A stretch of 64,000 nt of DNA from an uncultured Alphaproteobacteria bacterium (GTDB lineage: Bacteria; Pseudomonadota; Alphaproteobacteria; HIMB59; GCA-002718135), in NCBI GenBank assembly GCA_902588745.1, contig CACIQI010000001.1, positions 13,924 to 77,923 on the forward strand, in the 5' to 3' direction. Below, piece by piece: positions 16,681-36,676 of this stretch. A program made the position numbers and the translations under genes. The notes under the pieces were generated by a model. The model did not search any database. It was not told the DNA's origin and was given only the letters and a program-made list of their open reading frames with translations. The first letter of the stretch is position 1. Every line of letters starts with the position of its first letter.

Positions 16681-16774
16681 AGTTTAATTAATTTTATATT
16701 ATATTTTTTTATAAATAGATCCATTTTCATTTAATATAGATAATTTAAGATTTTGATAAAATATAAAAATTAAA

Positions 16775-17806: not shown

Positions 17807-17808
17807 TT

Positions 17809-21934: not shown

Positions 21935-22393
21935 TTAAATAAATTTTTCATTTTTTGTTGAATGCAACCATATAGCAAAAGCATCTAAAGGGACTAGCTT
22001 ACTCATATTTAAAAAATCAGATGCTTGTAAAAATTTGTACTTTATTCCTTCATTAAGTTTAATATTTTTAATCATTTCTTTATTAATTTTATATTCAAAA
22101 TAAGAGACAAAAATTTTATTTAATTTTTTAAATGATAAGTCAAAAGTAAATTTTGTAAAATAAGATAATTCTTTTTCTTCAATTGAAATTGACAATTCTT
22201 CATTTATTTCTCTTCTCAAGCAATTTTGTTCTGTTTCATTACTTTCAATCCCACCTCCAAAAACCCCCCAGTGTAATGGGTAAAAAATATTTCGCTTATC
22301 ATCTCTAAGTTGAAACAAATAATTATTATTTTCATCGTAAATTATTGCATGCACAGCATTTTTAGAGGCTACTAAATAATCTTCTTCTGACAT
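21935..22393 (-). CDS. NUDIX hydrolase
   Basis: Nudix box GGGIESNETEQNCLRREINEEL. I prefer the internal start MSEEDY (ATG at 22391-22393). The track start at 22468 would overlap the transketolase gene by 71 nt. Confidence 0.7.
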   Translation of the reverse strand: MSEEDYLVASKNAVHAIIYDENNNYLFQLRDDKRNIFYPLHWGVFGGGIESNETEQNCLRREINEELSISIEEKELSYFTKFTFDLSFKKLNKIFVSYFEYKINKEMIKNIKLNEGIKYKFLQASDFLNMSKLVPLDAFAIWLHSTKNEKFI

Positions 22394-22397
22394 GAAA

Positions 22398-23309: not shown

Positions 23310-24115
23310 GATTGTATTTCAAGTTCTTTCATTGCGATTTTATATTCTTCTTCATTTGGCGATCTGTAATGCCAAATTGGTTTATTTTCCATGTATGAAA
23401 CGCCCTTACCTTTAGTTGTATTACAGATAATTATAAAAGGTTTTTTAGTTTTTCTACTATTATATTTCTTTATTATATCCTCCTGATCATGACCATCAGC
23501 TTCAAAAGTTTCCCATCCAAAAGACTCTAATTTTGATTTGATTGGATAAAATTTAGGATGAACTTCTCTTGTAACTCCAAATGATTGCGAGCCGTTGTGA
23601 TCTAAAAAGCAAATTAAATTTTCACAATTTAAATTAGCAGCCATCATTAAAGCCTCCCATGTAGATCCCTCTTGTAATTCGCCATCACTGATCACAATAA
23701 AAATTTTTCTTTCTTCACTATTTATCTTATCAGCAGTATGCATTCCCACCGCTAAAGCCATACCATGACCAAGTGAACCTGTTGATGCTTCAATTCCTGG
23801 ATTTCCATAATCTGGATGAGCACCTAAAATTCCTCCGGGCTTACAATATTCATCAATTTGTTTATCAGAAATTATGCCAAGATAATTTAATACTACATAC
23901 TGCATTATACAGCTATGCCCTTTTGACATAATAAATGTATCATTAAATTTTTTTTCAGAAGTTTTAGACATTAATTCATTGTAAATTAAATCTACTATTT
24001 CAGTAGAAGAAAAAGCACCTCCAATATGTAAAGCAGGGACATTTTGAGAAATTTGAAGTATTTTTCTTCTAAAAAATAAACATCTATCTTTGTTATTATT
24101 TATTTTATTTTGCAT
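23306..24115 (-). CDS. transketolase, N-terminal (ThDP-binding) subunit
   Basis: 269 aa with SKGHSC, GSLGHGMALAVGM and ISDGELQEGSTWEA. Confidence 0.85.
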   Translation of the reverse strand: MQNKINNNKDRCLFFRRKILQISQNVPALHIGGAFSSTEIVDLIYNELMSKTSEKKFNDTFIMSKGHSCIMQYVVLNYLGIISDKQIDEYCKPGGILGAHPDYGNPGIEASTGSLGHGMALAVGMHTADKINSEERKIFIVISDGELQEGSTWEALMMAANLNCENLICFLDHNGSQSFGVTREVHPKFYPIKSKLESFGWETFEADGHDQEDIIKKYNSRKTKKPFIIICNTTKGKGVSYMENKPIWHYRSPNEEEYKIAMKELEIQS

Positions 24116-24116
24116 T

Positions 24117-24767
24117 TTATATAATTGTCCAATAATAATTACCTGTATATCCAGCTTTATTAAAAAGTTTTATCCAGTTTTCAGGATAGTCATGATAATA
24201 AGCAGTTAAAACCCAGCTCTCAAAAACCTTTTTTTCGTATTCGTTTCTATAAGAATCAACTTGTATAAAACTTTTTCCTTTAGAAACTCGCTCAATCTCT
24301 GTAAGACATTTAATTACACCATTTTGATCATAATTATGGATTGTATTTATAGAAATAACAAAATCAAAACATTTGTCAGGAAAAGGAAGTCTATCAGCTT
24401 TTCCTAAATGTAGTCGACCAATAGTTTCTTTTTCTGATTTTGAAATAGCATATTCTGAAATATCTATTCCATATGCGTCAATACCCAAGTTATGAAGATC
24501 TTTAACCAAAAACCCTTTTGCACAACCAATGTCTAAAACTTTATCACCTTTTTTTAAGTCGTAATGATTTATAATATCTTTGGCAACTGGCACCCATCGA
24601 CCATCATATTTATACCCCCCATATCCATACTCTCTTGGTCCGTCAAAGTACATCTCACCATATTCTCTTGAAATTCTTATAACTTCATCAGATTTATGTG
24701 TTTCTCTACTTTTAATGTCTCTTTTTTTTGGTTTAGGCAAAGATTTAAGTAGGTCAAGCTCAGACAT
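24117..24767 (-). CDS. class I SAM-dependent methyltransferase (paralog of 41348-42025)
   Basis: 216 aa with YGYGGYKYDGRWVPVAKDI and VLDIGCAKGFL. The same motifs occur in the 225-aa ORF at 41348-42025. Confidence 0.75.
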   Translation of the reverse strand: MSELDLLKSLPKPKKRDIKSRETHKSDEVIRISREYGEMYFDGPREYGYGGYKYDGRWVPVAKDIINHYDLKKGDKVLDIGCAKGFLVKDLHNLGIDAYGIDISEYAISKSEKETIGRLHLGKADRLPFPDKCFDFVISINTIHNYDQNGVIKCLTEIERVSKGKSFIQVDSYRNEYEKKVFESWVLTAYYHDYPENWIKLFNKAGYTGNYYWTII

Positions 24768-24783
24768 TTTGGAATTTGATATA

Positions 24784-25929
24784 TTATTTATCTAATAGTA
24801 TAAACCTTTTTTTTGCTAATTTTAGGCTTTTTATTATTTTTAAAGATAAGTCTCTTCTGAAAGGCATAATTATATTTTCAAATTTATGTATATCTTTGAC
24901 TGAAAGTATTTTTTTCTTCATGTGATAATTACCTATCTTATTAATATCTTGATCTATAAATTTATAATCCTTATTTTTTATTGATTGAGCAACCCATGTT
25001 GCTGCTATTGAAGTTCCAAAAATAGCTATATCACCCTTCAATTTTGTTATTTTGTTTAAAAAATTTTTATAAGAATTAAAATAAATATTTAATTTTATTT
25101 TTTTATTTATAAAATCATTATAATTGTATAGATTTTTATTTAAAATTTTATTTTCATTTCTCATTTTTAATAAAAAAGATATCTCTTTAGGTATTTTTTT
25201 ATTAAATAAAAATATTTTATTTAAATTTAGTTTTTTATTATAATTTCTAAAATCACTTTTAGCAAAATGAGAGCTATGATCCGCAACAAGAATATCAAAA
25301 GGAGAGTTCTCAAAATCTGGAACTTGAATAAAAAGATATCCAGTTTTTTTAAGTAAATATTTAATTTTTTCTAAAAATAAAACAGGATTTGGAACATGTT
25401 CCAATGTATGAATTAAAACAATTAAATCAAATTTTTTATCAATCTTATCAAGATTTAAAAAAAGTTTTTTAAAATTTTTAATTTTTTCTAATTTTTTTTT
25501 AAATCTTTTATCTTGCTCTAATCCATATAATTCCCAATTAGAATATTCTTTAGAAAATGATTTAAGAAATGGACCAGTTCCACATCCAATATCTAAAACA
25601 CTTCCATTTTTTTTAAATTTTATTTTAGAATTTATTAGATTTAAAATTTCCGAAGATCTATCATTCTGATCATTGTTATTAGAAGTAAATAATTTTTGAT
25701 CCTCACCCCTAGCACTTTTGAACATTTCATAATTTTTATAAATAGAATTTACTCTTTTTTTCCATTTTGCATCAATAGGTTTTTGGATTAAAAAACAATT
25801 AGAACATATTGATAAATCCCCTTTATAAAAAGTAGGTTTACAATCTGAACTAACTAAATAATAATTTGAAAATTTTTTAATTTTTATTAGTTTAGCTTCA
25901 CAGTTATGACAGATTAATTTTTTGCTCAT
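24784..25929 (-). CDS. three-part methyltransferase (zinc ribbon + class I MT + C-terminal domain), sugar C-methyltransferase-like architecture
   Basis: 381 aa with CHNC...CSNC at the N-terminus, VLDIGCGTGPF, LIHTLEHVPNP and an extra ~130-aa C-terminal domain. Confidence 0.6.
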   Translation of the reverse strand: MSKKLICHNCEAKLIKIKKFSNYYLVSSDCKPTFYKGDLSICSNCFLIQKPIDAKWKKRVNSIYKNYEMFKSARGEDQKLFTSNNNDQNDRSSEILNLINSKIKFKKNGSVLDIGCGTGPFLKSFSKEYSNWELYGLEQDKRFKKKLEKIKNFKKLFLNLDKIDKKFDLIVLIHTLEHVPNPVLFLEKIKYLLKKTGYLFIQVPDFENSPFDILVADHSSHFAKSDFRNYNKKLNLNKIFLFNKKIPKEISFLLKMRNENKILNKNLYNYNDFINKKIKLNIYFNSYKNFLNKITKLKGDIAIFGTSIAATWVAQSIKNKDYKFIDQDINKIGNYHMKKKILSVKDIHKFENIIMPFRRDLSLKIIKSLKLAKKRFILLDK

Positions 25930-27470
25930 AATAAGTTTTTGTATTTCTCTAAAAAATAATTTGGTATATTCGCTTCGAATTGTATATCATCAGTAAGAAG
26001 CGTATTATTATTTTTTATTATATTATTAATTTTTATTTGATTTTTTGAAATTTTTAAAATTTTTTTATTAGTATTATTTAATTTTTTTATCATTGTTGAA
26101 ACCAAATCTTTGATTTCATCTGAAGAATTCTCAACAAATTCTACTTCTAGCAAATTTTTATAAATTCCATCAAGGGCACCCATTGAAAATTTTTTTTCAA
26201 ACAAAGTATTAAAATCTAGCAAATTTCCGTTTTTATATTTTAATAAGCCCGGTAAGTATAAATCCTTTGAACCAAAATATAAAGTTGATAAAGGTCTATA
26301 ATTAGTCATTGCTATAGGAACATTCGCTATGTGAGATATTGCGGACATACCAGAGGATGTTCCTATCATGAACTTACATTGAGTAGATAAAAAGATATCC
26401 ATGAAATCTGATTTAATATTACTAAAAGGATAATCTATTATATTTTTTATATTTGGCATTCTTTTATTATTATCTTTTCCAATTCTAATAACCCAGCCGC
26501 CTGCATTTATAATTTCTTCAAAAGCAGGAAAATAATCCCTAATGTTTGCATCTCTATGATTTTCTCTACCTTTAAATGAATCATCTCTTACATGTACACA
26601 TACAAACCAATCATTTTTTTTAATCCCTATTTTATTTAATTTTTTCCAACCTAATTTTTTTTCATTTTCACTTAATTGAAAGAGAGGTTTTTTATTTTGA
26701 TTTTGCCAAATTTTGTTTACAAGAATTCCAGTAGATTGAGTATATAAATATAAGTTATTTTCAAACTTATAAAATTCATTTTGATGTATATCAAAAAGAC
26801 TTTCATACTTCTTATATTTTTTTATTAAATTTTCATCATAGATAAAATTAATATATTTTGATATTTTTTTAATATAAAAATCATTGATTGCTTTATTCTT
26901 AAATTCATTATGAACTAGACATATAAATTTATAATTTGGAATTAATCCTAGCTTGCATGACTTTAACGTAATATCAGTGATATATGATAAACCTATAGTA
27001 TTAAAAATATCTTTCGCTCGAATAAATCTAATGTTTTTTCTATTAAAATCATTACTATTTTGCATTTTGCTTAATATTTCAAAATACTTTTTCTTCAATA
27101 AAAAATAATTTTCTAAATCCAATGTATTATTTTTTATTTGAATATATTTCTGATAAAAATTAAAAGGATTTTTATTAATAGCTTCTATATTATCTAAGTA
27201 AAGTATATCAGATTTTTTTACTAGCAAATTTAGTTTTTTAAAATCAAATTTAATTTCATTTTCAATTATAAAATTGATTGTTTCTAAATAATAATCAATA
27301 AGAGAATTAAAGTTAAATTTATGAGGAAAATATTTTTCAATAAATGAAAAAACAATAAAATTAATTTTATTTTTCGAAATTACATATGATCTATAAAAAC
27401 TAAATAACCATTTTAACCTACCACCTTTTTTTAAAGGATAAAAAATATAATTAATTAAACTTCGCATCAT
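25926..27470 (-). CDS. uncharacterised protein, putative glycosyltransferase (possibly the TIGR04372-type family; paralog of 38416-39624)
   Basis: 514 aa. The C-terminal half shares W(F/I)C(V/I)H.RD, IR(I/V)G, D.(F/Y)L...CKF.IG..SG with the 402-aa ORF. The family assignment is from memory only. Confidence 0.4.
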   Translation of the reverse strand: MMRSLINYIFYPLKKGGRLKWLFSFYRSYVISKNKINFIVFSFIEKYFPHKFNFNSLIDYYLETINFIIENEIKFDFKKLNLLVKKSDILYLDNIEAINKNPFNFYQKYIQIKNNTLDLENYFLLKKKYFEILSKMQNSNDFNRKNIRFIRAKDIFNTIGLSYITDITLKSCKLGLIPNYKFICLVHNEFKNKAINDFYIKKISKYINFIYDENLIKKYKKYESLFDIHQNEFYKFENNLYLYTQSTGILVNKIWQNQNKKPLFQLSENEKKLGWKKLNKIGIKKNDWFVCVHVRDDSFKGRENHRDANIRDYFPAFEEIINAGGWVIRIGKDNNKRMPNIKNIIDYPFSNIKSDFMDIFLSTQCKFMIGTSSGMSAISHIANVPIAMTNYRPLSTLYFGSKDLYLPGLLKYKNGNLLDFNTLFEKKFSMGALDGIYKNLLEVEFVENSSDEIKDLVSTMIKKLNNTNKKILKISKNQIKINNIIKNNNTLLTDDIQFEANIPNYFLEKYKNLL

Positions 27471-28284
27471 TTAAAAAATGTCTCAAATTTTGAATATTAT
27501 CTAGGTTATTATACTTAGATGATAATGCGCAATATTTTGGTTTATATAGTATTTTTTTATCTGATTTTTTATAACTTATTTTTTTTACTAGATGATTATT
27601 TATATTATTAATCTTTAAAATTTTATTAATTAAATTGAAATAAGAAATTTTAGATTTTCCTGATAAATGATATATTCCTTTTTTTTCAATGCTAATTACA
27701 AACTTTACAACAAATTCAATAGATATAGGTGATATATATAGATCATGAAAAACATTAATTTCTTTATTCTTAATTATTAAATTTTTCCACTCATACAACA
27801 AACCATCATTTATTGATAAAATTTTTGTTGGACGAATAATGATAGTATTCTGTAGTTTTATTAGTTCTTTTTCTACAGAGTATTTAAATTTACCATAATT
27901 GCAGGTAGGATTTAACTCATCATTTTCAACACAATTTTTTTTCTTTCCATCAAAAACAGCCTGAGATGAAAAATATATAATTTTACAATTATTCTTAGAT
28001 AAATTTTTTATAATTTTAAGAGTATTTTTTACATTAATTAATTTACTTTTTTCTGGGTATGCCTCACAATTCGGTATACTTGTTATAGAAGCACAAAAAA
28101 AAACCTTTGAATCATATATATTTAATTTTTTTGGTTTTTTAAGGTCTAAATAAATAGAGTTAATTTTAGAGTTTTTTTTTCGTGAAGTACAAATTACATT
28201 TTTTTTATTTTTTTTTAAAAATTTATAAATATATGAACCAACTAAGCTATCTCCACCTATAATAAGATACTTTTCATTACGCAT
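27451..28284 (-). CDS. RmlD-like NAD(P)-dependent sugar reductase (SDR)
   Basis: 277 aa with IIGGDSLVGS, SSQAVFDG and YGKFK (YxxxK). Confidence 0.65.
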   Translation of the reverse strand: MRNEKYLIIGGDSLVGSYIYKFLKKNKKNVICTSRKKNSKINSIYLDLKKPKKLNIYDSKVFFCASITSIPNCEAYPEKSKLINVKNTLKIIKNLSKNNCKIIYFSSQAVFDGKKKNCVENDELNPTCNYGKFKYSVEKELIKLQNTIIIRPTKILSINDGLLYEWKNLIIKNKEINVFHDLYISPISIEFVVKFVISIEKKGIYHLSGKSKISYFNLINKILKINNINNHLVKKISYKKSDKKILYKPKYCALSSKYNNLDNIQNLRHFLNDAKFN

Positions 28285-28288
28285 TAAA

Positions 28289-29137
28289 TTAGTAGTGTTT
28301 ATATATTTTCTTTAGAACAATATCAATTTGGTTAAATTTAAAATTTGGGATTATATTTTGTATTCTTGATTTTTGAAAAGCTCGATATCCATTATGAGGC
28401 ATCTTTCCAGATCTCTTAGTAAAAATAATATTAATGTTTTTATTTGAAGTTTTTTTAATTATTTTAGCTATTTGAAAAAAAGAAAAAACTTTCCCAGAAG
28501 TTGCATTAATTTTTCCATAAATATTTTTTTTGATAATAATAAATATAATTTTAGCCAGATCATTTACCCAAATGTGATCTCTTTTTTCTTCACCTTTTCC
28601 AAAAAGAACAATATCTGAATTTTGTTTTGCTAATCTCACAAACTTATTAGGGCCATAACCATTATGAGGATCTTTGCTTCCATAAACAAGTGTTGGCCTA
28701 ACTATAGTTAATTTAATATTTAGAGTTTCTAATAATTTCTCTCTAGTCAAATGCATTATACCATGCAAAGAATCTGGATCTGTGATTGATCTTTCATTAA
28801 TTTTTTTAGAAGAATCTGCATATACTGCGTCAGAACTCACATATATTAAATGTTTAATTTTTTTATTATCTATACCAGCTATAAAGTTATTTAACATTGT
28901 TAAATTTTCATTAAACATTTTTAAATTTTTAACAGGTGCTTTTGCTGAAATAAAAATAATTACATCATTTTCATAAATTGTTTCTTTAATCTTTTTAATT
29001 GAAGATTTTTTAAGTAAATTTAGGTTTTGACTAGATAATGCTTTGTTTTGAATTTTTTTTTTATTTAACAAACTAATTATATTTTCAGCAATAAATCCAT
29101 TTTTACCAAAAATAACAACTCTTGATTTTTTATTCAT
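28289..29137 (-). CDS. atypical SDR-fold protein (epimerase/dehydratase-like, YxxxK replaced)
   Basis: 282 aa with IFGKNGFIAENI and SSDAVYA. The expected P.YG..K..E site reads SLHGIMHLTRE (His/His instead of Tyr/Lys). Confidence 0.6.
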   Translation of the reverse strand: MNKKSRVVIFGKNGFIAENIISLLNKKKIQNKALSSQNLNLLKKSSIKKIKETIYENDVIIFISAKAPVKNLKMFNENLTMLNNFIAGIDNKKIKHLIYVSSDAVYADSSKKINERSITDPDSLHGIMHLTREKLLETLNIKLTIVRPTLVYGSKDPHNGYGPNKFVRLAKQNSDIVLFGKGEEKRDHIWVNDLAKIIFIIIKKNIYGKINATSGKVFSFFQIAKIIKKTSNKNINIIFTKRSGKMPHNGYRAFQKSRIQNIIPNFKFNQIDIVLKKIYKHY

Positions 29138-29140: not shown

Positions 29141-30388
29141 TTAAATAATTCTATATACTTCAATAGATTGATTTTTTGTTGGTTTAACAACAGAAAAAGG
29201 GTCTATTATTATTTTTTTATCTTTAATCATTATATTATTTAAGTCTATTTTTTTATATTCATTTAAATCTAACATTACAAATATAATATTTGATTTTTTA
29301 ATTAGATCTTTAATATTTTTAATTGATACACCATGAATATTTTTGATATTTTCACTTAATATAGAATCATGAACAAAAATTTTATTTGTTTTATTTTTTA
29401 TTTTTTTAATAAGATTTATTGAGGGGCTATTTTTTATTGAATTTGTATTTTTTTTATATGTAAGGCCAAGAACACCGACATGCAATTTATTTAAATTTTT
29501 ATTTTTTGAAACTTTAGAGAAAATATTATAACACCAATTTTTATAATAATTTGATAAATATTCAAAAGTTTGAAAAAGATGGATAGCTGATTTATTTTTT
29601 TTGCCTAAAGAAATTATGGAGTTTAAATCTCTCTCCAAATTTCCACCTGATATTCCAAGACCAGGATTTAAATATGCATCTTTGCCAATTCTAGAATCTA
29701 GATTTAAAGCTAATTTGATATCATTCCAATTAGCCCCTATTTTTTTTGATATTTCAGCAATTGAATTAGTGGTTGTAACTTGAGAAATTAAATACAAATT
29801 TATTGCAATTTTGCATAATTCAGCACTTTCATAATTCATATATAAAATTGGACACTTAAACTTTTTTAAAAAAGAATTATAGATTGTTGGAATTTTATTA
29901 TTATTATTCTTTCCAACTATAATTCTTTCTGGATTTAAAGCTCTTTGAAAGGCTTTGCCAAAAATTAAAGTTTCAACTTGATAAAATAGTTTATTTTTTG
30001 GCCAGTTTATTCTTCTTGTGAAACCCGGCGGTATTTGACATAAAATAATTAATATAATATTTTTGTTTAAATTTTTGATAATCTTTTTTAGTATGTTATT
30101 TATTTCTGAATAATTACTTTTGCCCTTGCTATTTGTTTTAATATCTATTGAAATATAAACAATACTGGCTTTATTCATATGAAGAATATTATTTGTAAAA
30201 AATATTTTGTTACTATTTTTTTTATAAAGCTTATTTAAGTTTGGCTCCTTAATATCAAAATTAGATTTTTTAAAATTATCAATTTTTTTAATGTCATTAT
30301 CGTAACAAATTACATCGTATTTTTTTTCAGCTGCAGAAATTGAAGACACTATACCTAAATGTGTCATACCTATAAAACCAATTTTCAT
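29141..30388 (-). CDS. UDP-glucose/GDP-mannose dehydrogenase-family protein lacking the catalytic cysteine
   Basis: 415 aa with three-domain family colinearity (IGFIGMTHLG, AELCKIAIN, DSRIG). The catalytic motif reads NPGLGISGGNLERD where family members have ..GGxCLPKD. Confidence 0.7.
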   Translation of the reverse strand: MKIGFIGMTHLGIVSSISAAEKKYDVICYDNDIKKIDNFKKSNFDIKEPNLNKLYKKNSNKIFFTNNILHMNKASIVYISIDIKTNSKGKSNYSEINNILKKIIKNLNKNIILIILCQIPPGFTRRINWPKNKLFYQVETLIFGKAFQRALNPERIIVGKNNNNKIPTIYNSFLKKFKCPILYMNYESAELCKIAINLYLISQVTTTNSIAEISKKIGANWNDIKLALNLDSRIGKDAYLNPGLGISGGNLERDLNSIISLGKKNKSAIHLFQTFEYLSNYYKNWCYNIFSKVSKNKNLNKLHVGVLGLTYKKNTNSIKNSPSINLIKKIKNKTNKIFVHDSILSENIKNIHGVSIKNIKDLIKKSNIIFVMLDLNEYKKIDLNNIMIKDKKIIIDPFSVVKPTKNQSIEVYRII

Positions 30389-31290
30389 TTGAGACTTTTT
30401 ATTATCTTATAATTATTGATTTGCTCACTCAAATCTAAAATTCTTCTTTTCTTTACTAAATTAAAAAAATGCTTATGTTCAATTTTCCAAGTAGGATCAC
30501 CAAATGGTTCAATAAATTTTTTTTCCTTTGGTATACCAGAGGGCAATATTCTTTTCCTTAAATACAAAGTCGAATCAGACCATTTACATAGATTATGTAC
30601 ATGTATTGAGCCTTTTTGCCCAACAATTTCACAACTAAAGTTATTTTTCCATGATGTTAAACTCATATCAAGATAATATTTAATTTTTGTATTATCTGAA
30701 ACTATAAAAGCATTATCGTAAGAATTGTTTTCAAATTTTGAAAAATTTATTTTTCTAAATTTTAATTTGTAATCTTTAAACCAAAAATAAATTAAATCAA
30801 TGAGATGTGAGCCAAGATCAGATAAAACACCATCTCCTTTATCTCTCCATAAACTTTGTTTTACTAATCTAGCTGTTCCATTACCATAGAATATTTTACA
30901 GTAATAAATCTTTCCTAATATTTTTTTATCTATATATTTTTTTACTCTAAGAAGATTAGGTTCAAATCTGTGATTGTAAGCAACATATAATACAATTTTT
31001 TTTTGTATAATTTGAGTGTTTATTCTTTGAAGTATTTTTTCATTTTTGAAATAAAGAGGTTTTTCTATTAAAATATGTTTTGAAAATTTTATACAAAAAT
31101 TAATTAATTCAAATTTATTATAGTCAGGGGTACAAATAAAAACAGAATTATAATCGTTTATTGGCACATCATTAATTTTTTTATAATTTGCTTTTTTGTT
31201 TATTGGATCAACAGTAGCTACTACATACTTCTTTAAAAATTTTAACCTTTTTAATCCTTGAGTGCCAAGACCTACAATAATTATTTTCAT
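30385..31290 (-). CDS. Gfo/Idh/MocA-family oxidoreductase
   Basis: 301 aa with MKIIIVGLGTQG and LIEKP. It has a 4-nt overlap with the downstream dehydrogenase homolog. Confidence 0.75.
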   Translation of the reverse strand: MKIIIVGLGTQGLKRLKFLKKYVVATVDPINKKANYKKINDVPINDYNSVFICTPDYNKFELINFCIKFSKHILIEKPLYFKNEKILQRINTQIIQKKIVLYVAYNHRFEPNLLRVKKYIDKKILGKIYYCKIFYGNGTARLVKQSLWRDKGDGVLSDLGSHLIDLIYFWFKDYKLKFRKINFSKFENNSYDNAFIVSDNTKIKYYLDMSLTSWKNNFSCEIVGQKGSIHVHNLCKWSDSTLYLRKRILPSGIPKEKKFIEPFGDPTWKIEHKHFFNLVKKRRILDLSEQINNYKIIKSLK

Positions 31291-32837
31291 TAACTTGAAT
31301 AATTAACTTTTTTTTCAATCTCATTTAATTTGGTAAGTACATGGGAAGTTTTTACAGGAATATTACCATCGTACTCGCATTCACATGCAGCTGCAATAGA
31401 GCCTAGAATGGAGGAAATAACAAGTGATTTTGACGATAACATAGATAGTGTTGAGTATGCTAATAATGCATCTCCAGCACCAACAGGATCAACAATATTA
31501 TTTACAAATGAATCTAGCGAGAAATATGAATTGTTAGACTTATTTTTGTATGTATTACAAAATACACCCTTAGAACCTAATTTTAAAATTAAATGTTTGT
31601 ATTTGCAATTATCATACAATAACTGTGATAGCTGACCGACTGTTGCATCTTGGTTTGCAAGTGCAAATCTTGATTCCCTTTCATTTGGCGTAATAAGATC
31701 AAATCCTTTAAAATCAGTTATATTACCCCATCGACTTGCTACTTGACTATCTGCAACCTTAAAGGTTTTTTTTGATATAGCTTTTGTTAATTTATTTGTA
31801 CTTATTTGATTAAAGATCCCATGTCTAAAATCACTAAAAACAACAGCATTAGATTTATCTTTTTTTAAAGATGAACATAAGAAATCAATAATTTCACTTG
31901 AAATTGGCCTGTTATCAAGTGTGTCGACCTTTAATAGTCTATAATCTGAAGCAATAAAGACATTTTTATTTGTTGTAGGTCTTGTATTATCTATGTAAAA
32001 ATTAGTAATAATTTTAGTTTTTTTAAATTGATTTAAAACAAATTTTTTTAGATTATCGTTACCTAAAACTGTTGAGAAAATTACTTTTGCCCCAGCAGAG
32101 TCTAAATGTTTTGATACTATTCCTGCGCCACCAACATAATCTTCTTTACTGTTGAAATGAAGACTGAATGTAGGTGTTTTAGTTTGACCACCAATTAAAG
32201 TGGTTCTAGTATAAGTGTCTACAATTGTATCCCCAATGACATGTACCTTTAGTTTTTTGAAATCCATTAAAGTTTTTTTTAAAGTTTCAAAATTAATTTT
32301 CTCTTTATGCATTAACATTATTAATTTTTCTAATCCAACTTCAGGAAGTGACTTATTTAAAAATTTTGAGGATGAATAAACAACATCTCCAGGTGTAAAA
32401 ATAATATTTCCACCGTATGATTTTAAGGCCTTAATTTCTTCTTGTGTTGCTTTAGGTAATCCAGCTGATGAATATTCAAATCCTTTTGCAAAATAATTTG
32501 GTCTTATTAATTTTATATTATTAATAGGGGTCGAATTTTTATCTATAACAACGTAATCAACCATTTCAAATGCTGCTAAATTTAAAGCTCTTAAATTTTC
32601 AGGAATATGAGGTCTATAGGTGCCTTTTTTTATATGTTTGTCACATGTAAGCGAAACTATTAGTTTATCAGCTTTAGTTTTAGCATACGTTAAATGTCTT
32701 ACATGCCCTGGATGAACTACATCAAATACGCCATGACACATTATGAAATTAAAATTTTTATTATTCTTTACAATTTTTTTTAATTGGCTTGAAGTTTTTA
32801 TCTTGTAGCTATATTTTTTTATTAATTCAGAAGACAT
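31290..32837 (-). CDS. bifunctional sugar-phosphate nucleotidyltransferase / PfkB sugar kinase (HldE-like with swapped domain order)
   Basis: 515 aa. The N-terminal CHGVFDVVHPGHVRHL is the HxGH cytidylyltransferase fold. The C-terminal VIGDTIVDTY..GGAGIV...DPVGAGDALLA is the PfkB kinase. Confidence 0.8.
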   Translation of the reverse strand: MSSELIKKYSYKIKTSSQLKKIVKNNKNFNFIMCHGVFDVVHPGHVRHLTYAKTKADKLIVSLTCDKHIKKGTYRPHIPENLRALNLAAFEMVDYVVIDKNSTPINNIKLIRPNYFAKGFEYSSAGLPKATQEEIKALKSYGGNIIFTPGDVVYSSSKFLNKSLPEVGLEKLIMLMHKEKINFETLKKTLMDFKKLKVHVIGDTIVDTYTRTTLIGGQTKTPTFSLHFNSKEDYVGGAGIVSKHLDSAGAKVIFSTVLGNDNLKKFVLNQFKKTKIITNFYIDNTRPTTNKNVFIASDYRLLKVDTLDNRPISSEIIDFLCSSLKKDKSNAVVFSDFRHGIFNQISTNKLTKAISKKTFKVADSQVASRWGNITDFKGFDLITPNERESRFALANQDATVGQLSQLLYDNCKYKHLILKLGSKGVFCNTYKNKSNNSYFSLDSFVNNIVDPVGAGDALLAYSTLSMLSSKSLVISSILGSIAAACECEYDGNIPVKTSHVLTKLNEIEKKVNYSS

Positions 32838-32842: not shown

Positions 32843-33838
32843 TTAAGACATATATTTAAACCATGATTTTGTAGCTTTATCTATATTTTTTTTATTCCAC
32901 AAGGGTGCATCTTGCCATTTATTAATTTCCTTGAGCATATTTTTAACACCTTTTTCAAACTTTACTTTAGGTTTCCATTTTAAAAATTTAGATATTTTTT
33001 CATTAGATGACCATGTACAATCTGGCTCACCTGGTCTTTTAGGTAAATAAGTTTTTTCCCCGCCTATGATATCTGCTAAGAGATTGATACTTTGAGGATT
33101 ATTTGCTCCTAAGTTAAAAATTTGATTATTTACTCTACTTTCTGCAGCTTTCACAAAAGCGTTTGCAACATCAGTAACATAAACAAAATCTCTTTTTTGT
33201 TCTCCATTTCCAACTATTGTTAAGGGTTTACCAGAAAGTTTTTGTTTAAAGAAAACACCAAAAACAGCACCATAAACTCCAGTTGTCCTAACTCTTGTTC
33301 CATAAGCGTTAAATATTCTAAGGGATATGTAATTCTGTTTATAAACTTTATGATAATGAATTATCAATTGTTCTCCCTGATATTTACTTAAAGCATAAGG
33401 ATACAATGGGTTGATTTTATGGCCTTCATTTGTTGGCGTTTTTGCTAAACCATAGCATGAAGATGAGGCGGCATATATTATTTTTTTAATATTATTGTTT
33501 CTTGCAGATTCAAGAATATTTAATGTTCCAAAAACATTAGTATTAAAGTATTTTTTTGGATTTTCGATTGAGGGTACAATATCTCCTTTCCCAGCAAAAT
33601 GAAAAACATAATCTACATCCTTAAAAAAACTACTGTTTGGTGAAATATTAATAATATTTTTTTTTTCTAACAATAGATTTTTGTTTCTTTTATGGTGAAT
33701 TAAATTATTTTCATGACCACCCGACAAATCATCTAATATTCTTACTTTATAATTTTTTTTTAATAATAAATCCACTGTATGACTGCCAATAAATCCAGCT
33801 CCTCCTGTAACGACAGCAGTCTTTTTTCTATTTGGCAT
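32843..33838 (-). CDS. NAD-dependent nucleotide-sugar epimerase/dehydratase (extended SDR)
   Basis: 331 aa with VTGGAGFIGSH and YALSKYQGE (YxxxK). Confidence 0.8.
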   Translation of the reverse strand: MPNRKKTAVVTGGAGFIGSHTVDLLLKKNYKVRILDDLSGGHENNLIHHKRNKNLLLEKKNIINISPNSSFFKDVDYVFHFAGKGDIVPSIENPKKYFNTNVFGTLNILESARNNNIKKIIYAASSSCYGLAKTPTNEGHKINPLYPYALSKYQGEQLIIHYHKVYKQNYISLRIFNAYGTRVRTTGVYGAVFGVFFKQKLSGKPLTIVGNGEQKRDFVYVTDVANAFVKAAESRVNNQIFNLGANNPQSINLLADIIGGEKTYLPKRPGEPDCTWSSNEKISKFLKWKPKVKFEKGVKNMLKEINKWQDAPLWNKKNIDKATKSWFKYMS

Positions 33839-34829
33839 TAATTTTTAGTAATTTTTTGACATTAAAATAATTTTCATTTTCAAATGTATCTATAGCAACT
33901 TGTTTCTTAAAATTTAAACATAATTCTTCTATTGCATTTTCTAATGTATATTGTGGAGAATATCCTAATATTTCCTTAATTTTGTCAGAATTAATGTGAT
34001 ACGACCTATTATCATCACTTGGAGTTTTAATCATTTCAATTTCAAAGCCAGGGAAAAATTTATTTTCAACTACATTTTTTACTTTTTGTGCAATTTCATT
34101 AATAGATAGATTTTGATATCCAACATTGAAAATCTGATTTTCTATAAGATGTTTAGGAGCTTCTAATAATAATTTTACAGCATTACAATAATCTTTAACA
34201 TGTAAGTTTGGTCTTAGTTGGTCACCACCAAAAATTTTAATGAATTTTTTATTGTACGCAAAATTTGTTAGTATATTTACAGATAGATCTAGTCTTAACC
34301 TAGGAGCGTATCCACATACAGTTGCGGGTCTAAATATTACTCCTTCGAATTTGTCATCTGTATGTTTAAGTAGAATTGGTTCACATAAACCTTTAAATTT
34401 ATTATAAAGAGTAAGAGGAAGTAAAGGATGATCCTCTTTAACATCTTTTTTATCGGAAACACCATAAACAGAACTAGATGAAGCATATATAAATCTTTTA
34501 ATACCTGCTTTCTTAGCTGCAAGAACCATTGGTTCAAAGGCATCATAATTAACGCTTGTAGATAAATTTTCATCTAATTCAAAACTCGCATCATTTGAAA
34601 TACATGCAAGGCTGACAAAATAATCATGATCTTTTGCGCATTCATTTATTTTATTACTGTCTCTTATATCGCCTTTTATTATTTTTAAGTTTTGATTTTT
34701 TTTTGGCAGGAATTCATCCCCAAAATACATAATATCATAAACTGTTACAAAGTATCCTGAATCTAGCAACAATGGTACTAGTTGACTTCCGCAATATCCT
34801 GCACCACCTGTAATGAAAACTTTTTTCAT
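33828..34829 (-). CDS. NAD-dependent nucleotide-sugar epimerase/dehydratase (extended SDR)
   Basis: 333 aa with ITGGAGYCGS, SSSSVYG and YNKFK (YxxxK). Confidence 0.8.
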   Translation of the reverse strand: MKKVFITGGAGYCGSQLVPLLLDSGYFVTVYDIMYFGDEFLPKKNQNLKIIKGDIRDSNKINECAKDHDYFVSLACISNDASFELDENLSTSVNYDAFEPMVLAAKKAGIKRFIYASSSSVYGVSDKKDVKEDHPLLPLTLYNKFKGLCEPILLKHTDDKFEGVIFRPATVCGYAPRLRLDLSVNILTNFAYNKKFIKIFGGDQLRPNLHVKDYCNAVKLLLEAPKHLIENQIFNVGYQNLSINEIAQKVKNVVENKFFPGFEIEMIKTPSDDNRSYHINSDKIKEILGYSPQYTLENAIEELCLNFKKQVAIDTFENENYFNVKKLLKINAK

Positions 34830-34831: not shown

Positions 34832-35557
34832 TTATTTTATTTTATATCCAGCATTAGAAGCATCATTAAAAAACATTTTAACAGTATCTAGAGAAAATTC
34901 GTTCAAATCTTTTCCTATAGATTCTAACTTAGAAAGTAAATTTATTGGTACTGTGATAATATCGGTTTTAGTCTCTATTGCTTGAAAAATATTTAATAGC
35001 TCTCTAGGACTGGCCCATAGTAATTCACAATTTTTATTTAAATTTGTTCTATCTGAACATTCTTTCATTATCGTCATTGGATCAATTCCTGTATCAGCTA
35101 TTCTTCCTGCAAAAACTGATAGAATCAATGGCGTATCTACCTCACCAATTTCTTTCAACAAGGTATTTAATTGATTAAAAGTAAAAATTGCAGTTACATT
35201 ACATTTAACACCACTAAGAAGAAGATCTTTTACTAGATTATTGGTCGATATCCCTTTTGTATTTGTGATAGGAATTTTGACATATACATTTTCACCCCAA
35301 CTAGAAATTATTTTTGCTTGTTCATTCATTTCATCAATATCGTCAGCAAATACTTCAAAAGAAATTGATTTTTCATTACTAATGTTTTTAATTAATTTTT
35401 TAGCAAAATCGTTATAATCTTCAACTCCGGCATTCTTCATAAGAGTTGGATTTGTTGTAAAACCTTTTATCAATTTATTTTCATTTAACTCTAACATGCC
35501 TTTAAAATCGGCGCCATCAGCAAAAATTTTGATATTATCTAGATTATCTACCATCAA
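34832..35557 (-). CDS. transaldolase / fructose-6-phosphate-aldolase-family enzyme
   Basis: 241 aa with FADGADF, GFTTNPTLM and VYVKIP (Schiff-base Lys context). Confidence 0.8.
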   Translation of the reverse strand: MMVDNLDNIKIFADGADFKGMLELNENKLIKGFTTNPTLMKNAGVEDYNDFAKKLIKNISNEKSISFEVFADDIDEMNEQAKIISSWGENVYVKIPITNTKGISTNNLVKDLLLSGVKCNVTAIFTFNQLNTLLKEIGEVDTPLILSVFAGRIADTGIDPMTIMKECSDRTNLNKNCELLWASPRELLNIFQAIETKTDIITVPINLLSKLESIGKDLNEFSLDTVKMFFNDASNAGYKIK

Positions 35558-36086
35558 ATTTTAAAATAAAGTTTGTTGCGTCAAATAAATTTTTAAATGT
35601 TTTATAGTTATTTATATTCGATTCCTCAATTAAATCATTTTTAATAAATATTGGAGTGCATCCAGCTTTTCTTCCTGCAACCATATCAGAATGCCTATCT
35701 CCAATCATGAAACTTCGTTTTAAATTGATTTGATACTTTCTGGCTAGATCAGTAATCATTTTTGGCTTAGGTTTTCTACAATCACAATTTGCAGTTTGAC
35801 TATGAAAGCAATATTTTATTTCATCTATTTTTACTTCTTTTAATATTTTGGCATTCATTTTAAAAATAATTTCTTTTTTAATTTTTTTATTTCCAACATC
35901 TGGCTGATTACTTACTATAAAAATTTTATATTTTTTTTTTTTTAATTTAATTATTGCATCAATAGATCTATTTATAAATTTAAAATCTGAGATATTTTTT
36001 GGAGCAAAGCATTTATTATTAATGTATATACATTCATTTACTACACCATCGCGATCTAAAAAAACAGCGATATTATTTTCTACCAT
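35544..36086 (-). CDS. gmhB: D,D-heptose 1,7-bisphosphate phosphatase-type HAD phosphatase
   Basis: 180 aa with FLDRDGVVN, the zinc motif CFH...CDCRKPKP and GDRHSD. Confidence 0.85.
   Translation of the reverse strand: MVENNIAVFLDRDGVVNECIYINNKCFAPKNISDFKFINRSIDAIIKLKKKKYKIFIVSNQPDVGNKKIKKEIIFKMNAKILKEVKIDEIKYCFHSQTANCDCRKPKPKMITDLARKYQINLKRSFMIGDRHSDMVAGRKAGCTPIFIKNDLIEESNINNYKTFKNLFDATNFILKFDGR
35931..35943. repeat. 13-nt A/T homopolymer inside the gmhB coding sequence
   Basis: Read directly: T13 on the plus strand (A13 in the mRNA sense, encoding LKKKKY). It is the longest homopolymer I noticed in the window. Confidence 0.9.
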
Positions 36087-36676
36087 TTAGTTTTATTAGC
36101 TTGTAGCAAGGGATGAGATACAAGACAATGCCAAACAACAGATTGAAATGACTCTGATATAGGTGTAATTAATTTTTGATCTTGTGATTCTATCAAAATA
36201 GAAACATTAGAATTTTTTGCAGCATATCCATTTTTTTTTCCAATAATTGAGAAAATCTTGGATTTTTTCAATTTTGCAAACTTTATAGCGTTTACAATAT
36301 TAATACTAACTCGTTTTTTTATATTTCCTCCTCCAACAGAAAAAATTAATATGGCATCCTTATTATTTAATTTACTAATTTTTAACCATTCTGAAATACT
36401 ACTATCCCATCCTTCATCATTAATTCTTGCTGTTAATTCGGATACATTATCAATTGGAGAATAAGTTTCAATTTTGCATAATTTTCTAAAATCATTTACT
36501 GCATGTGATGCATTTCCCGCACTTCCTCCTACACCTATAATAAAAAGTCTTCCATTTTTTTTTCTCAAATTAGAAAGTTGATAAGCTAATTTTTCAATTT
36601 TATTATAATCAATATTTTTAGAAGAAAGAATAATATTGCTAAAATAATTTTCTATGTGGTTAGTCATTATGATCAC
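36080..36676 (-). CDS. gmhA: SIS-domain sugar-phosphate isomerase (phosphoheptose isomerase type)
   Basis: 198 aa with GVGGSAGNASHAVNDF and FSVGGGN. It is translationally coupled to gmhB. Confidence 0.8.
   Translation of the reverse strand: MIIMTNHIENYFSNIILSSKNIDYNKIEKLAYQLSNLRKKNGRLFIIGVGGSAGNASHAVNDFRKLCKIETYSPIDNVSELTARINDEGWDSSISEWLKISKLNNKDAILIFSVGGGNIKKRVSINIVNAIKFAKLKKSKIFSIIGKKNGYAAKNSNVSILIESQDQKLITPISESFQSVVWHCLVSHPLLQANKTKW

What the first reader, a model, noticed from the sequence alone, without database searches (positions are those of the whole stretch)
29141..31290. UDP-sugar dehydrogenase homolog with catalytic Cys replaced by Asn, coupled to a Gfo/Idh/MocA oxidoreductase
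Seen: the 415-aa protein is colinear with the UDP-glucose/GDP-mannose dehydrogenase family. At the conserved active-site motif (..PG.G.GG.CLPKD) it reads NPGLGISGGNLERD, so Cys is Asn, Pro is Glu and Lys is Arg. The N-terminal dinucleotide motif is also unusual (GMTHLG). The island's other family member (20637-21926) keeps GGHCIGVD. The gene overlaps by 4 nt a Gfo/Idh/MocA oxidoreductase. Established: the Cys forms the thiohemiacetal/thioester needed for the second oxidation to the uronic acid. Inference: this enzyme cannot perform the normal four-electron oxidation. It may stop at the 6-aldehyde, act as a two-electron oxidoreductase or epimerase, or be a non-catalytic partner of the neighbouring oxidoreductase. 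A 6-aldehyde would be a handle for transamination or chain extension, which suits an island rich in aminotransferases and ThDP enzymes.
Basis: partly seen in the sequence, partly recalled or inferred. Interest (0 to 1): 0.62.

Follow-up and report, generated by a model that had tools for sequence, protein, structure and literature searches.

The report
Cysteine-less sugar dehydrogenase with oxidoreductase partner
A SAR11 ocean bacterium carries an intact relative of UDP-glucose dehydrogenase that long ago swapped its catalytic cysteine for asparagine, is always coupled to a second oxidoreductase, and sits in a widely shared operon that probably builds a seven- or eight-carbon keto/deoxy sugar for the cell surface rather than a sugar acid.

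Summary
ORF 29141-30388 (-) has all three UDP-glucose/GDP-mannose dehydrogenase domains. Asn250 sits at the catalytic Cys position (GLGISGGNLERD versus GCGYGGSCFPKD), and the dinucleotide motif reads GMTHLG. The gene overlaps a Gfo/Idh/MocA gene by ATGA.

This is a clade signature, not a lesion. Of 509 full-length relatives, 500 have Asn, 8 His, 1 Gln and none Cys. About 586 clusters at 50% identity exist, across many phyla. The residues for the first hydride transfer (Lys193, Asn197, Asp254, Glu139) are invariant.

The gene order SIS-HAD-transaldolase-SDR-SDR-(nucleotidyltransferase+kinase)-Gfo-CyslessUGDH-SDR recurs from SAR11 to Bacteroidota, Actinomycetota and Acidobacteriota.

Best reading: the enzyme performs a two-electron oxidation of the secondary C6 alcohol of a nucleotide-activated octose (or heptose). 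With its Gfo partner it would yield a keto/deoxy sugar, as reported for LmbL plus LmbZ/CcbZ in lincomycin biosynthesis.

"6-aldehyde" and "non-catalytic" are unlikely. I could not retrieve the LmbL sequence, so membership in its clade is untested.

The parts
29141..30388 (-). Cys-less UDP-glucose/GDP-mannose-dehydrogenase-family protein, 415 aa. Motifs: G7-M-T-H10-L-G12 (30353-30370); Q118 in QIPPGFT; YQVE139TLIFG (29957-29983); ESAELCK193IAIN197 (29798-29830); GLGISGGN250LER253D254 (29627-29662).
   Evidence: AlphaFold2 model has pLDDT 94.7. Foldseek top hit is 3gg2 with TM 0.87.
30385..31290 (-). Gfo/Idh/MocA oxidoreductase partner, 301 aa. It has GLGTQG, EKP and DLGSH motifs. Its stop overlaps the start of the dehydrogenase homologue by 4 nt (ATGA).
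   Evidence: It lies directly upstream of the homologue in most of 71 evaluable loci and in L001 and L242-L245.
28289..29137 (-). Extended-SDR-fold protein, 282 aa, 3 nt downstream. The YxxxK dyad is replaced by H125-G-I-M-H129. It is conserved in this position in the cassette.
   Evidence: In 63 orthologues the motif is xHGxMHxxRE; none keeps the Lys.
31290..32837 (-). Bifunctional protein with an N-terminal cytidylyltransferase-like nucleotidyltransferase and a C-terminal PfkB sugar kinase. It is HldE-like but with the domain order swapped. It shares 1 nt with the Gfo gene.
   Evidence: (HldE model 142 bits against a cut-off of 521). Present upstream in 41 of 49 evaluable loci.
32843..33838 (-). 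GalE-like extended SDR (SDR_A) with a canonical YxxxK.
33828..34829 (-). Second GalE-like extended SDR (SDR_B).
34832..35557 (-). Small transaldolase/Fsa-family enzyme. It matches TIGR02134 at 301 bits, above the cut-off.
   Evidence: Found in 16 of 22 loci with at least 6 kb of upstream sequence.
35544..36086 (-). GmhB-like HAD-IIIA sugar-bisphosphate phosphatase. It scores 125 bits, below the equivalog cut-off of 178.
36080..36676 (-). SIS-domain isomerase, distantly GmhA-like. It scores about 40 bits against cut-offs of 209-265.
21935..28284 (-). Accessory genes of the same co-directional string: RmlD-like SDR (27451-28284), TIGR04372 glycosyltransferase (25926-27470), two methyltransferases (24117-25929), split transketolase-like ThDP enzyme (22398-24115) and Nudix (21935-22468).
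   Evidence: The same accessory types follow the core elsewhere.

Best explanation
The 415-aa protein is a catalytically active, neofunctionalised member of the UDP-glucose dehydrogenase fold.

**Shown**
- It keeps the NAD domain, the nucleotide-sugar domain and the residues that drive the first hydride transfer (Lys193, Asn197, Asp254, Glu139).
- It has replaced the residues I recall as serving the second, thioester-dependent half-reaction: Cys->Asn250, the Tyr of GxGYVG->His10, and Thr->Gln118.

**Inferred**
- Its substrate is a nucleotide-activated higher-carbon sugar made by the upstream genes. The proposed route is: the transaldolase builds a ketose phosphate, most likely octulose-8-P from a pentose phosphate. 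The SIS isomerase then gives the aldose phosphate. The PfkB kinase phosphorylates C1, the HAD phosphatase removes the terminal phosphate, and the nucleotidyltransferase activates the sugar. The two GalE-like SDRs epimerise it.
- In such a sugar C6 carries a secondary alcohol. The enzyme would oxidise it with NAD+ to a 6-ketone and stop there.
- The translationally coupled Gfo/Idh/MocA partner, and probably the Tyr/Lys-less SDR just downstream, would process this keto intermediate. The process would be elimination of the terminal hydroxyl and re-reduction, a net 6,8-dehydration. LmbL plus LmbZ/CcbZ are, as I recall, credited with this step in the reported conversion of GDP-octose to GDP-lincosamide.
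- The resulting keto/deoxy sugar would then be reduced, methylated, C2-branched by the split ThDP enzyme or (in other genomes) transaminated, and finally transferred to a SAR11 surface glycan.
For: **Fold and family.** All three Pfam domains are present, and TIGR03026 scores 202 bits against a cut-off of 190. The AlphaFold2 model has pLDDT 94.7, and its best PDB match is a UDP-glucose dehydrogenase at TM 0.87.

**Cys position.** Alignment to solved enzymes puts Asn250 on the catalytic Cys.

**Clade signature.** Of 509 full-length relatives, 500 have Asn, 8 His, 1 Gln and 0 Cys. There are 586 representatives at E<=1e-30; the 150 listed score at least 224 bits, whereas the best canonical PDB enzyme scores 117 bits. 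Invariant columns include K193, N197, D254, E139, G7, H10, L11, G12, Q118, N250 and R253.

**Gfo coupling.** A Gfo gene lies within 1.2 kb upstream in at least 56 of 71 evaluable loci, and is directly adjacent in 47. Several of the remainder are truncation artefacts. The 4-nt overlap recurs in Bacteroidota, Tardiphaga, Plantibacter and another actinobacterial contig. The Gfo partner keeps GxGxxG, EKP and DLGSH.

**Cassette.** SIS-HAD-TAL-SDR-SDR-NT/kinase-Gfo-UGDH-SDR recurs across phyla. The SIS and HAD proteins score far below the GmhA and GmhB equivalog cut-offs, so this is not the housekeeping heptose pathway.

**Literature.** LmbL ('dehydrogenase'), LmbZ/CcbZ ('NAD(P)-dependent oxidoreductase'), LmbM and LmbS/CcbS convert GDP-octose to GDP-lincosamide. 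LmbR is a transaldolase, LmbN an isomerase, LmbK a phosphatase, LmbP a kinase and LmbO a nucleotidyltransferase (PMC12945683; PMC4351081).
Against: - No biochemical data exist for this clade, and the substrate is inferred from gene context only.
- I could not retrieve the LmbL or LmbZ sequences. So it is untested here whether LmbL is Cys-less or belongs to this clade. That LmbL is a UGDH-family protein, that LmbZ is a Gfo/Idh/MocA protein, and that they perform the 6,8-dehydration all rest on my recollection of Wang et al. 2020 and older cluster annotations.
- The activation enzymes differ in family. Here they are HldE-type; in lmb, as I recall, they are a GHMP kinase plus an NTP-transferase.
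- No aminotransferase sits next to the pair in this window.
- A heptose substrate is not excluded.
- The altered dinucleotide loop (Gly->Thr9) has not been shown to bind NAD.
- The division of labour between the three oxidoreductase-fold proteins is unknown.
Confidence: 0.55

Rival explanations
1. The chemistry is the same but the substrate is a heptose. The cassette would make an ADP- or CDP-activated glycero-manno-heptose. The Cys-less enzyme would oxidise its secondary C6-OH to a 6-keto-heptose for epimerisation, amination or ThDP-dependent branching, with no 8-deoxygenation.
For: The SIS, HAD and kinase/nucleotidyltransferase proteins have GmhA, GmhB and HldE as their best named matches. 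The transaldolase could simply supply sedoheptulose-7-P. The Tardiphaga locus lacks the TAL, SIS and HAD genes next to the core.
Against: All three heptose-type matches fall far below the equivalog cut-offs: 40 against 209, 125 against 178, and 142 against 521. The HldE domain order is reversed. Sedoheptulose-7-P is a common metabolite, so by inference a dedicated transaldolase in most cassettes (16 of 22) is more easily explained if it builds an unusual ketose. As I recall, LmbR does this for octulose-8-P. A heptose offers no obvious role for a second and third oxidoreductase after C6 oxidation.
Confidence: 0.2
2. The enzyme acts on an ordinary UDP-/GDP-hexose and stops at the 6-aldehyde, which is then transaminated or chain-extended.
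For: Loss of the Cys nucleophile with retention of the first-step residues. ThDP enzymes and aminotransferases are present in the island.
Against: The gene is locked into an operon whose first five genes build and activate a non-hexose sugar. Free sugar aldehydes are reactive, and canonical enzymes avoid releasing them. Many other active-site residues are remodelled as well (Thr->Gln118, Glu->Phe143, Pro->Glu252, Lys->Arg253, and TDDxR->TxSxK). That suggests a different substrate rather than only a truncated reaction.
Confidence: 0.07
3. The protein is a non-catalytic pseudoenzyme. It would act as a scaffold or substrate-binding subunit for the Gfo/Idh/MocA enzyme.
For: The catalytic Cys is lost and the second Gly of GxGxxG is replaced. 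The gene is tightly coupled to a partner that looks catalytically complete.
Against: K193, N197, D254 and E139 are invariant, and the changed cofactor loop G-x-[ST]-H-L-G is itself invariant. The conserved acidic residue at the end of beta-2 (Asp30) is kept. In a related branch the partner type changes: one homologue is fused to a classical adh_short domain instead of pairing with Gfo. That argues the UGDH-like part carries its own function.
Confidence: 0.05
4. The pair is WbpA/WbpB-like. A 6-dehydrogenase would make a UDP-HexNAc uronic acid, the Gfo enzyme would oxidise C3, and DegT enzymes would then aminate it to a 2,3-diamino uronic acid.
For: The gene types match superficially: UGDH family plus Gfo/Idh/MocA, with DegT genes downstream in some cassettes.
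Against: As I understand the WbpA-type reaction, uronic acid formation requires the Cys, and none of the 509 clade members has it. The window has a separate, canonical TviB/WbpO-like enzyme with the Cys. The upstream SIS/HAD/TAL/kinase genes have no place in that route. DegT follows the core in only 6 of 30 loci.
Confidence: 0.03

Closest known systems
LmbL + LmbZ/CcbZ (with LmbM and LmbS/CcbS) of lincomycin/celesticetin biosynthesis in Streptomyces lincolnensis and S. caelestis
   Same: A 'dehydrogenase' and an 'NAD(P)-dependent oxidoreductase' act together on a nucleotide-activated octose. That octose is made by a transaldolase, an isomerase, a kinase, a phosphatase and a nucleotidyltransferase, with an epimerase alongside (PMC12945683, PMC4351081). 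The window's cassette has a counterpart for every one of these roles. As I recall, LmbL is a UGDH-family protein, LmbZ is a Gfo/Idh/MocA protein, and the pair performs a 6,8-dehydration.
   Different: - Here the genes lie in a cell-surface glycan island of a SAR11 bacterium, and the cassette occurs in many phyla rather than in an antibiotic cluster.
- The kinase and nucleotidyltransferase are an HldE-type fusion with swapped domain order.
- There is an extra Tyr/Lys-less SDR.
- The Gfo gene directly abuts the UGDH-like gene, whereas the lmb order is Z-N-M-L.
- No aminotransferase is adjacent.
- Sequence relatedness to LmbL and LmbZ could not be tested.
Canonical UDP-glucose / UDP-ManNAc / GDP-mannose 6-dehydrogenases (e.g. 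PDB 3gg2, 4a7p, 2q3e, 2y0c, 1mv8)
   Same: The three-domain fold is the same (TM 0.85-0.88). The central-helix Lys and Asn, the loop Asp and the first Glu of NPEFLxEG are retained.
   Different: - The catalytic Cys is replaced by Asn.
- GxGYVG becomes Gx[ST]HLG.
- STVPVGT becomes [SC]QVPPGFT.
- NPEFLxEG becomes YQVETLxFG.
- PKD becomes ERD.
- Sequence identity is about 20%.
- A four-electron oxidation to a uronic acid is not expected.
ADP-glycero-manno-heptose pathway (GmhA, HldE, GmhB)
   Same: These are the best named matches for the SIS, kinase/nucleotidyltransferase and HAD genes of the cassette. The logic is the same: isomerise, phosphorylate C1, dephosphorylate the terminal carbon, then activate.
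   Different: All scores fall well below the equivalog cut-offs. The HldE domain order is reversed. A dedicated transaldolase and three extra oxidoreductases are attached.

Membership tests
UDP-glucose/GDP-mannose dehydrogenase family (PF03721/PF00984/PF03720; TIGR03026) | Three-domain architecture: NAD-binding, central helical and NDP-sugar-binding domains | tested here: met
   All three Pfam domains are above their cut-offs, and TIGR03026 scores 202 bits against 189.8. The predicted fold matches 3gg2 at TM 0.87.
UDP-glucose/GDP-mannose dehydrogenase family (PF03721/PF00984/PF03720; TIGR03026) | Catalytic Cys in GGxCxPKD, which forms the thiohemiacetal/thioester | tested here: not met
   Asn250 aligns with the Cys of 3gg2, 4a7p and 3vtf. 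None of 509 clade members has Cys there.
UDP-glucose/GDP-mannose dehydrogenase family (PF03721/PF00984/PF03720; TIGR03026) | Central-helix Lys and Asn, and the loop Asp | tested here: met
   K193, N197 and D254 align with the canonical residues and are invariant in the clade.
UDP-glucose/GDP-mannose dehydrogenase family (PF03721/PF00984/PF03720; TIGR03026) | GxGxxG dinucleotide-binding motif | tested here: not met
   The motif reads G7-M-T9-H10-L-G12. The second Gly is Thr/Ser and the Tyr is His throughout the clade. Whether NAD still binds was not testable.
UDP-glucose/GDP-mannose dehydrogenase family (PF03721/PF00984/PF03720; TIGR03026) | Match to a named equivalog (TuaD, AglM, WecC, Ugd) | tested here: not met
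   The best is TuaD at 156 bits against a cut-off of 700. The others score 57-117 bits against cut-offs of 459-757.
LmbL/LmbZ-type octose-modifying pair | A UGDH-like dehydrogenase working with a Gfo/Idh/MocA-type oxidoreductase | tested here: met
   The genes are adjacent with a 4-nt overlap here, and this is conserved across phyla. The protein families of LmbL and LmbZ themselves are from my own knowledge. The papers I could read call them 'dehydrogenase' and 'NAD(P)-dependent oxidoreductase'.
LmbL/LmbZ-type octose-modifying pair | Sequence membership in the same clade as LmbL/CcbL, including the state of the Cys position | not testable with these tools
   LmbL was never retrieved. It was absent from the top 120 hits of three protein searches.
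LmbL/LmbZ-type octose-modifying pair | Co-located genes that build and activate the octose: transaldolase, isomerase, kinase, phosphatase and nucleotidyltransferase | tested here: inconclusive
   All five roles are present and conserved. However, the kinase and nucleotidyltransferase are HldE-type, and carbon number cannot be read from sequence.
LmbL/LmbZ-type octose-modifying pair | A 6-aminotransferase (LmbS/CcbS type) acting on the keto product | tested here: not met
   There is no DegT gene next to the pair in this window; the nearest are at 17809-18954 and 47579-51159. DegT follows the core in L001, L242 and L245 and in 6 of 30 scanned loci.
Gfo/Idh/MocA oxidoreductases (the partner, 30385-31290) | N-terminal Rossmann GxGxxG, EKP motif and C-terminal alpha/beta domain with the conserved Asp/His | tested here: met
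   PF01408, PF02894 and PF22725 all hit. GLGTQG, IEKPL and DLGSH are present and conserved in 68 orthologues. The closest solved structures are DgpA and YvaA, at about 1e-10.
WbpA/WbpB-type UDP-HexNAc uronic acid route | A 6-dehydrogenase with a catalytic Cys that produces the uronic acid substrate of the Gfo-type 3-dehydrogenase | tested here: not met
   The Cys is absent. The operon context is higher-sugar assembly.
ADP-heptose pathway (GmhA/HldE/GmhB) | Scores above the equivalog cut-offs, and HldE domain order kinase then adenylyltransferase | tested here: not met
   GmhA scores 40 bits against 209, GmhB 125 against 178 and HldE 142 against 521. The nucleotidyltransferase domain is N-terminal.

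The most novel reading that the evidence does not exclude
The Cys-less G-x-[ST]-H-L-G / GGN[LI]ERD dehydrogenase, its Gfo/Idh/MocA partner and the HxxxH 'SDR' would form the core of an undescribed and very widespread primary pathway. That pathway would make a nucleotide-activated 8-deoxy (or further C2-branched or methylated) octose for cell-surface glycans. It would be present in SAR11, the most abundant marine bacteria, and in Bacteroidota, Actinomycetota, Acidobacteriota, Verrucomicrobiota, Nitrospirota and many Proteobacteria. On this reading the lincosamide octose route is a specialised offshoot of it. The enzyme class would be a 'split' NAD-dependent dehydratase built from three oxidoreductase folds.
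Probability: 0.4. Interest if true: 0.75.

Novelty: new variant of a known kind. Interest (0 to 1): 0.6.

Why it matters
If the reading is right, a textbook four-electron dehydrogenase fold has been repurposed, once and anciently, into a ketone-forming enzyme. This enzyme works in a three-protein oxidoreductase team on 7- or 8-carbon nucleotide sugars.

As far as I know, nucleotide-activated straight-chain octoses are known only from lincosamide antibiotics. Finding the same logic in a conserved operon of SAR11 and many other phyla would add a new class of monosaccharide to bacterial surface glycans. For SAR11 such glycans are thought to shape phage and grazer recognition.

It would also correct a large body of automatic annotation. 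In the sources I saw, these genes are labelled 'UDP-glucose 6-dehydrogenase', 'TuaD' or 'GDP-mannose dehydrogenase'.

Cultured carriers make the hypothesis directly testable. They include Tardiphaga robiniae, Azospirillum spp., Bradyrhizobium guangdongense and B. manausense, and Rhodopseudomonas sp. B29.

Tried and rejected
**1. Retrieving LmbL/CcbL to test clade membership (failed).**
- Wang et al. 2020 (PMC7547251) and the two JACS papers (PMC3932030, PMC3486926) are not held.
- Three protein searches, seeded with the window protein, an Acidimicrobiales member and an actinobacterial member, listed no Streptomyces LmbL among their top 120 hits.
Its Nocardiopsis and Glycomyces hits were chance matches in an unrelated protein.
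- tblastn against plasmids found nothing at 1e-60.

**2. Literature searches found nothing.** Searches for an octose/transaldolase polysaccharide cluster, or for the named lincosamide steps, returned no papers.

**3. A viral origin was rejected.** The loop motif has no match in viral contigs.

**4. Gfo-UGDH fusions.** None occurs among 88 loci. One adh_short-UGDH fusion exists (P0166).

**5. My first adjacency count was an artefact.** It gave 26 of 70 because ORF starts were over-extended in high-GC DNA. I replaced it with a stop-codon-based count.

**6. SAR11 HVR2.** I considered whether the island is the classical HVR2, which is bounded by rRNA genes (PMC3448164). The window holds no rRNA, only two tRNA-Met genes at its right edge, so this is left open.
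Full report
**Observation**

The finding spans two co-directional minus-strand genes: 29141-30388 (415 aa) and 30385-31290 (301 aa). The stop of the upstream gene overlaps the start of the downstream gene in ATGA.

The 415-aa protein carries all three domains of the UDP-glucose/GDP-mannose dehydrogenase family. It passes the general nucleotide-sugar dehydrogenase model TIGR03026 (202 bits, cut-off 190). It falls far short of every named equivalog; TuaD, for example, scores 156 against 700.

HMMER alignments to solved enzymes (3gg2, 4a7p, 3vtf) are gap-free around the active-site loop. They put GLGISGGNLERD on GCGYGGSCFPKD. That gives Cys->Asn250, Pro->Glu252 and Lys->Arg253, with Asp254 kept. 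They also put IGMTHLG on VGIGYVG (coordinates checked).

The same alignment shows three further points:
- Thr->Gln118 (STVPVG -> CQIPPG).
- NPEFLKEG -> YQVETLIFG, where the first Glu is kept as Glu139 and the second is Phe143.
- The central-helix Lys and Asn are retained (Lys193, Asn197).

The window's other family member (20637-21926) is a normal TviB-like enzyme with GLGYVG and Cys259.

**Not a lesion but a clade**

- All 120 closest database proteins have GGN[LI]ERD.
- In an exhaustive search of 1.84 billion representatives, 586 clusters at 50% identity score E<=1e-30. The best 150 still score at least 224 bits, whereas the best canonical PDB enzyme scores 117 bits.
- Over 509 full-length relatives collected from three seeds, the Cys position is Asn in 500, His in 8, Gln in 1 and Cys in none. 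494 have the G-x-x-H-L motif.
- A 41-sequence alignment spanning 30-71% identity has about 50 invariant columns. These include G7, H10, L11, G12, Q118, E139, K193, N197, N250, R253 and D254.
- An AlphaFold2 model is confident (pLDDT 94.7). It superposes on UDP-glucose dehydrogenases at TM 0.85-0.88 with about 20% identity. No member of this clade has a solved structure.

**What the substitutions mean**

The retained residues (Lys, Asn, Asp, first Glu) are, as I recall, those that canonical enzymes use for the first alcohol-to-carbonyl step.

The replaced residues are the thioester nucleophile, the Thr that corresponds to human Thr131, and the Tyr of GxGYVG. PDB entry titles for BceC (Y10S/Y10K mutants, 'the final step of UGDs reaction') point to that Tyr in the last, hydrolytic step. 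The role itself is my recollection of Rocha et al. 2011.

So the machinery of the second half-reaction has been removed and replaced by a new, strictly conserved residue set. This is direct sequence evidence for an active two-electron enzyme. It argues against a pseudoenzyme.

**Context**

Flanking MnmA and SufB fall in 90%-identity clusters named Pelagibacteraceae, so the organism is a SAR11 bacterium. The window is a glycan island of roughly 50 kb, almost wholly on one strand.

Upstream of the pair, with overlapping or nearly abutting junctions, lie:
- a SIS isomerase,
- a GmhB-like HAD phosphatase,
- a small transaldolase,
- two GalE-like SDRs,
- a 515-aa protein with an N-terminal cytidylyltransferase-like domain and a C-terminal PfkB kinase domain.

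Downstream lie an SDR-fold protein, an RmlD-like SDR, a TIGR04372 glycosyltransferase, two methyltransferases, a split transketolase-like enzyme and a Nudix protein.

The same order, SIS/HAD-TAL-SDR-SDR-NT/kinase-Gfo-UGDH-like-SDR, is found in:
- a Bacteroidota MAG at 45% identity,
- a marine alphaproteobacterial contig,
- a Plantibacter MAG and another actinobacterial contig,
- cultured Tardiphaga robiniae, without the first three genes and next to ABC-2 transporter and GT2 genes.

A motif scan of one genome per species returned 120 loci before hitting its limit. Of these, 87 are true members. They come from Alpha-, Beta- and Gammaproteobacteria, Acidobacteriota, Verrucomicrobiota, Nitrospira, Omnitrophota, Gemmatimonadota, Thermodesulfobacteriota and Actinomycetes. 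Cultured carriers include Azospirillum, Bradyrhizobium and Rhodopseudomonas.

Counts over those loci:
- A Gfo gene lies within 1.2 kb upstream in at least 56 of 71 evaluable loci and is directly adjacent in 47. Several apparent exceptions are locus-end truncations, and in 7 loci the SDR sits between the two genes.
- The NT/kinase gene is upstream in 41 of 49.
- Downstream within 4.5 kb, the most common genes are a methyltransferase (21 of 30) and split ThDP-enzyme halves (about 16 of 30). DegT aminotransferases follow in 6 of 30.

**An unplanned result**

An earlier first-reader note (e1-3625479) prompted a check of the SDR immediately downstream (28289-29137). Its YxxxK dyad is replaced by H-G-x-M-H. 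This holds in essentially all 63 orthologues examined.

The conserved core is therefore three atypical or specialised oxidoreductase-fold proteins: the Gfo protein, the Cys-less UGDH-like protein and the Tyr/Lys-less SDR.

**Mechanism (inference)**

The upstream genes match, role for role, the only known route to a nucleotide-activated octose. In the lincosamide pathway, LmbR is a transaldolase, LmbN an isomerase, LmbP a kinase, LmbK a phosphatase and LmbO a nucleotidyltransferase. LmbM (epimerase), LmbL (dehydrogenase), LmbZ/CcbZ (NAD(P)-dependent oxidoreductase) and LmbS/CcbS then convert GDP-octose to GDP-lincosamide (PMC4351081; PMC12945683).

From my recollection of Wang et al. 2020, which is not held here, the steps are 6-epimerisation, 6,8-dehydration, 4-epimerisation and 6-transamination. 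The dehydration is assigned to LmbL plus CcbZ.

In a heptose or octose, C6 bears a secondary alcohol at the position where UDP-glucose has its primary one. A UGDH-fold enzyme would oxidise it to a ketone, and a second oxidation is chemically impossible. That explains why the Cys and its helpers became dispensable.

The 6-ketone acidifies H7 and allows elimination of the C8 hydroxyl. The Gfo partner, and perhaps the His/His SDR, would carry out the elimination and re-reduction. I formed this hypothesis, before opening the scan's earlier notes. Several of those notes reach the same idea, and I do not count them as evidence.

**Octose or heptose**

The SIS, HAD and kinase/nucleotidyltransferase proteins resemble GmhA, GmhB and HldE only remotely: 40 against 209 bits, 125 against 178, and 142 against 521, with the domain order reversed.

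A dedicated transaldolase travels with the cassette in most genomes. This favours an unusual ketose phosphate over ordinary sedoheptulose-7-P. I put octose at roughly 2:1 over heptose. Sequence alone cannot settle it.

**Limits**

I could not obtain the LmbL or LmbZ sequences by any route; the attempts are listed under 'tried and rejected'. So the claim 'works like LmbL/LmbZ' rests on gene-role correspondence and the literature, not on demonstrated orthology.

The activation module is of a different family from the one I recall for lmb. No aminotransferase is adjacent here.

NAD binding by the altered loop, the position of the invariant Cys179, and the division of labour among the three proteins are all untested.

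**Verdict**

The substrate and product are more likely a higher-carbon keto/deoxy sugar than a hexose 6-aldehyde.

Relative to the literature I could search, the widespread primary-metabolism cassette appears undescribed. Its closest known analogue is the lincosamide LmbL/LmbZ step.

Noticed in passing
window 28289-29137 (-): The SDR-fold gene just downstream of the Cys-less dehydrogenase has its catalytic YxxxK replaced by HGxMH (SLHGIMHLTRE). In 63 orthologues from other genomes the Lys is never kept and the Tyr only rarely.
   Followed up: partly
window 31290-32837 (-): HldE-like bifunctional enzyme with the domain order reversed: HxGH nucleotidyltransferase first, PfkB kinase second. This order is conserved in every cassette inspected (L001, L242-L245).
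   Followed up: partly
window 22398-24115 (-) and 21935-22468 (-): A split transketolase-like ThDP enzyme plus a Nudix protein lie in the same gene string. Similar ThDP halves (transketolase- or E1-like) follow the core cassette in about half of the loci that have enough downstream sequence. This suggests a C2 transfer onto the keto-sugar.
   Followed up: partly
window 25926-27470 (-) and 38416-39624 (-): Two TIGR04372-family putative glycosyltransferases (164 and 143 bits). One has no Pfam hit at all. They bracket the cassette.
   Followed up: no
window 15670-20635 (-): A nonulosonic-acid-type module: a NeuB synthase, an SDR, a DegT aminotransferase, and a 562-aa fusion of a CTP_transf_3 cytidylyltransferase with a Gfo/Idh/MocA oxidoreductase.
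   Followed up: no
window 43192-47575 (-): Two tandem acetolactate-synthase-like ThDP enzymes, one of them 858 aa with about 250 extra N-terminal residues. They are followed by DJ-1/PfpI and HAD_2 genes. The same TPP-DJ1-HAD_2 trio precedes the cassette in the marine contig L242.
   Followed up: no
window 52993-53069 and 55009-55085 (-): Two tRNA-Met (CAT) genes lie at the right-hand edge of the island. Housekeeping genes (SufB, MnmA) begin beyond them. There is no rRNA in the window, so the island is not visibly bounded as the classical SAR11 HVR2 is.
   Followed up: partly
P0166 (metagenomic protein, 722 aa): One clade member is fused at its N-terminus to a classical adh_short SDR domain instead of pairing with a Gfo gene. 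Some scanned loci also carry an adh_short gene downstream.
   Followed up: partly
window 29852-29854 (Cys179 of the 415-aa protein): An invariant Cys (FxCPIL) lies on the strand preceding the central catalytic helix and is conserved across the Cys-less clade. Its distance to the active site could not be measured with the tools available.
   Followed up: no
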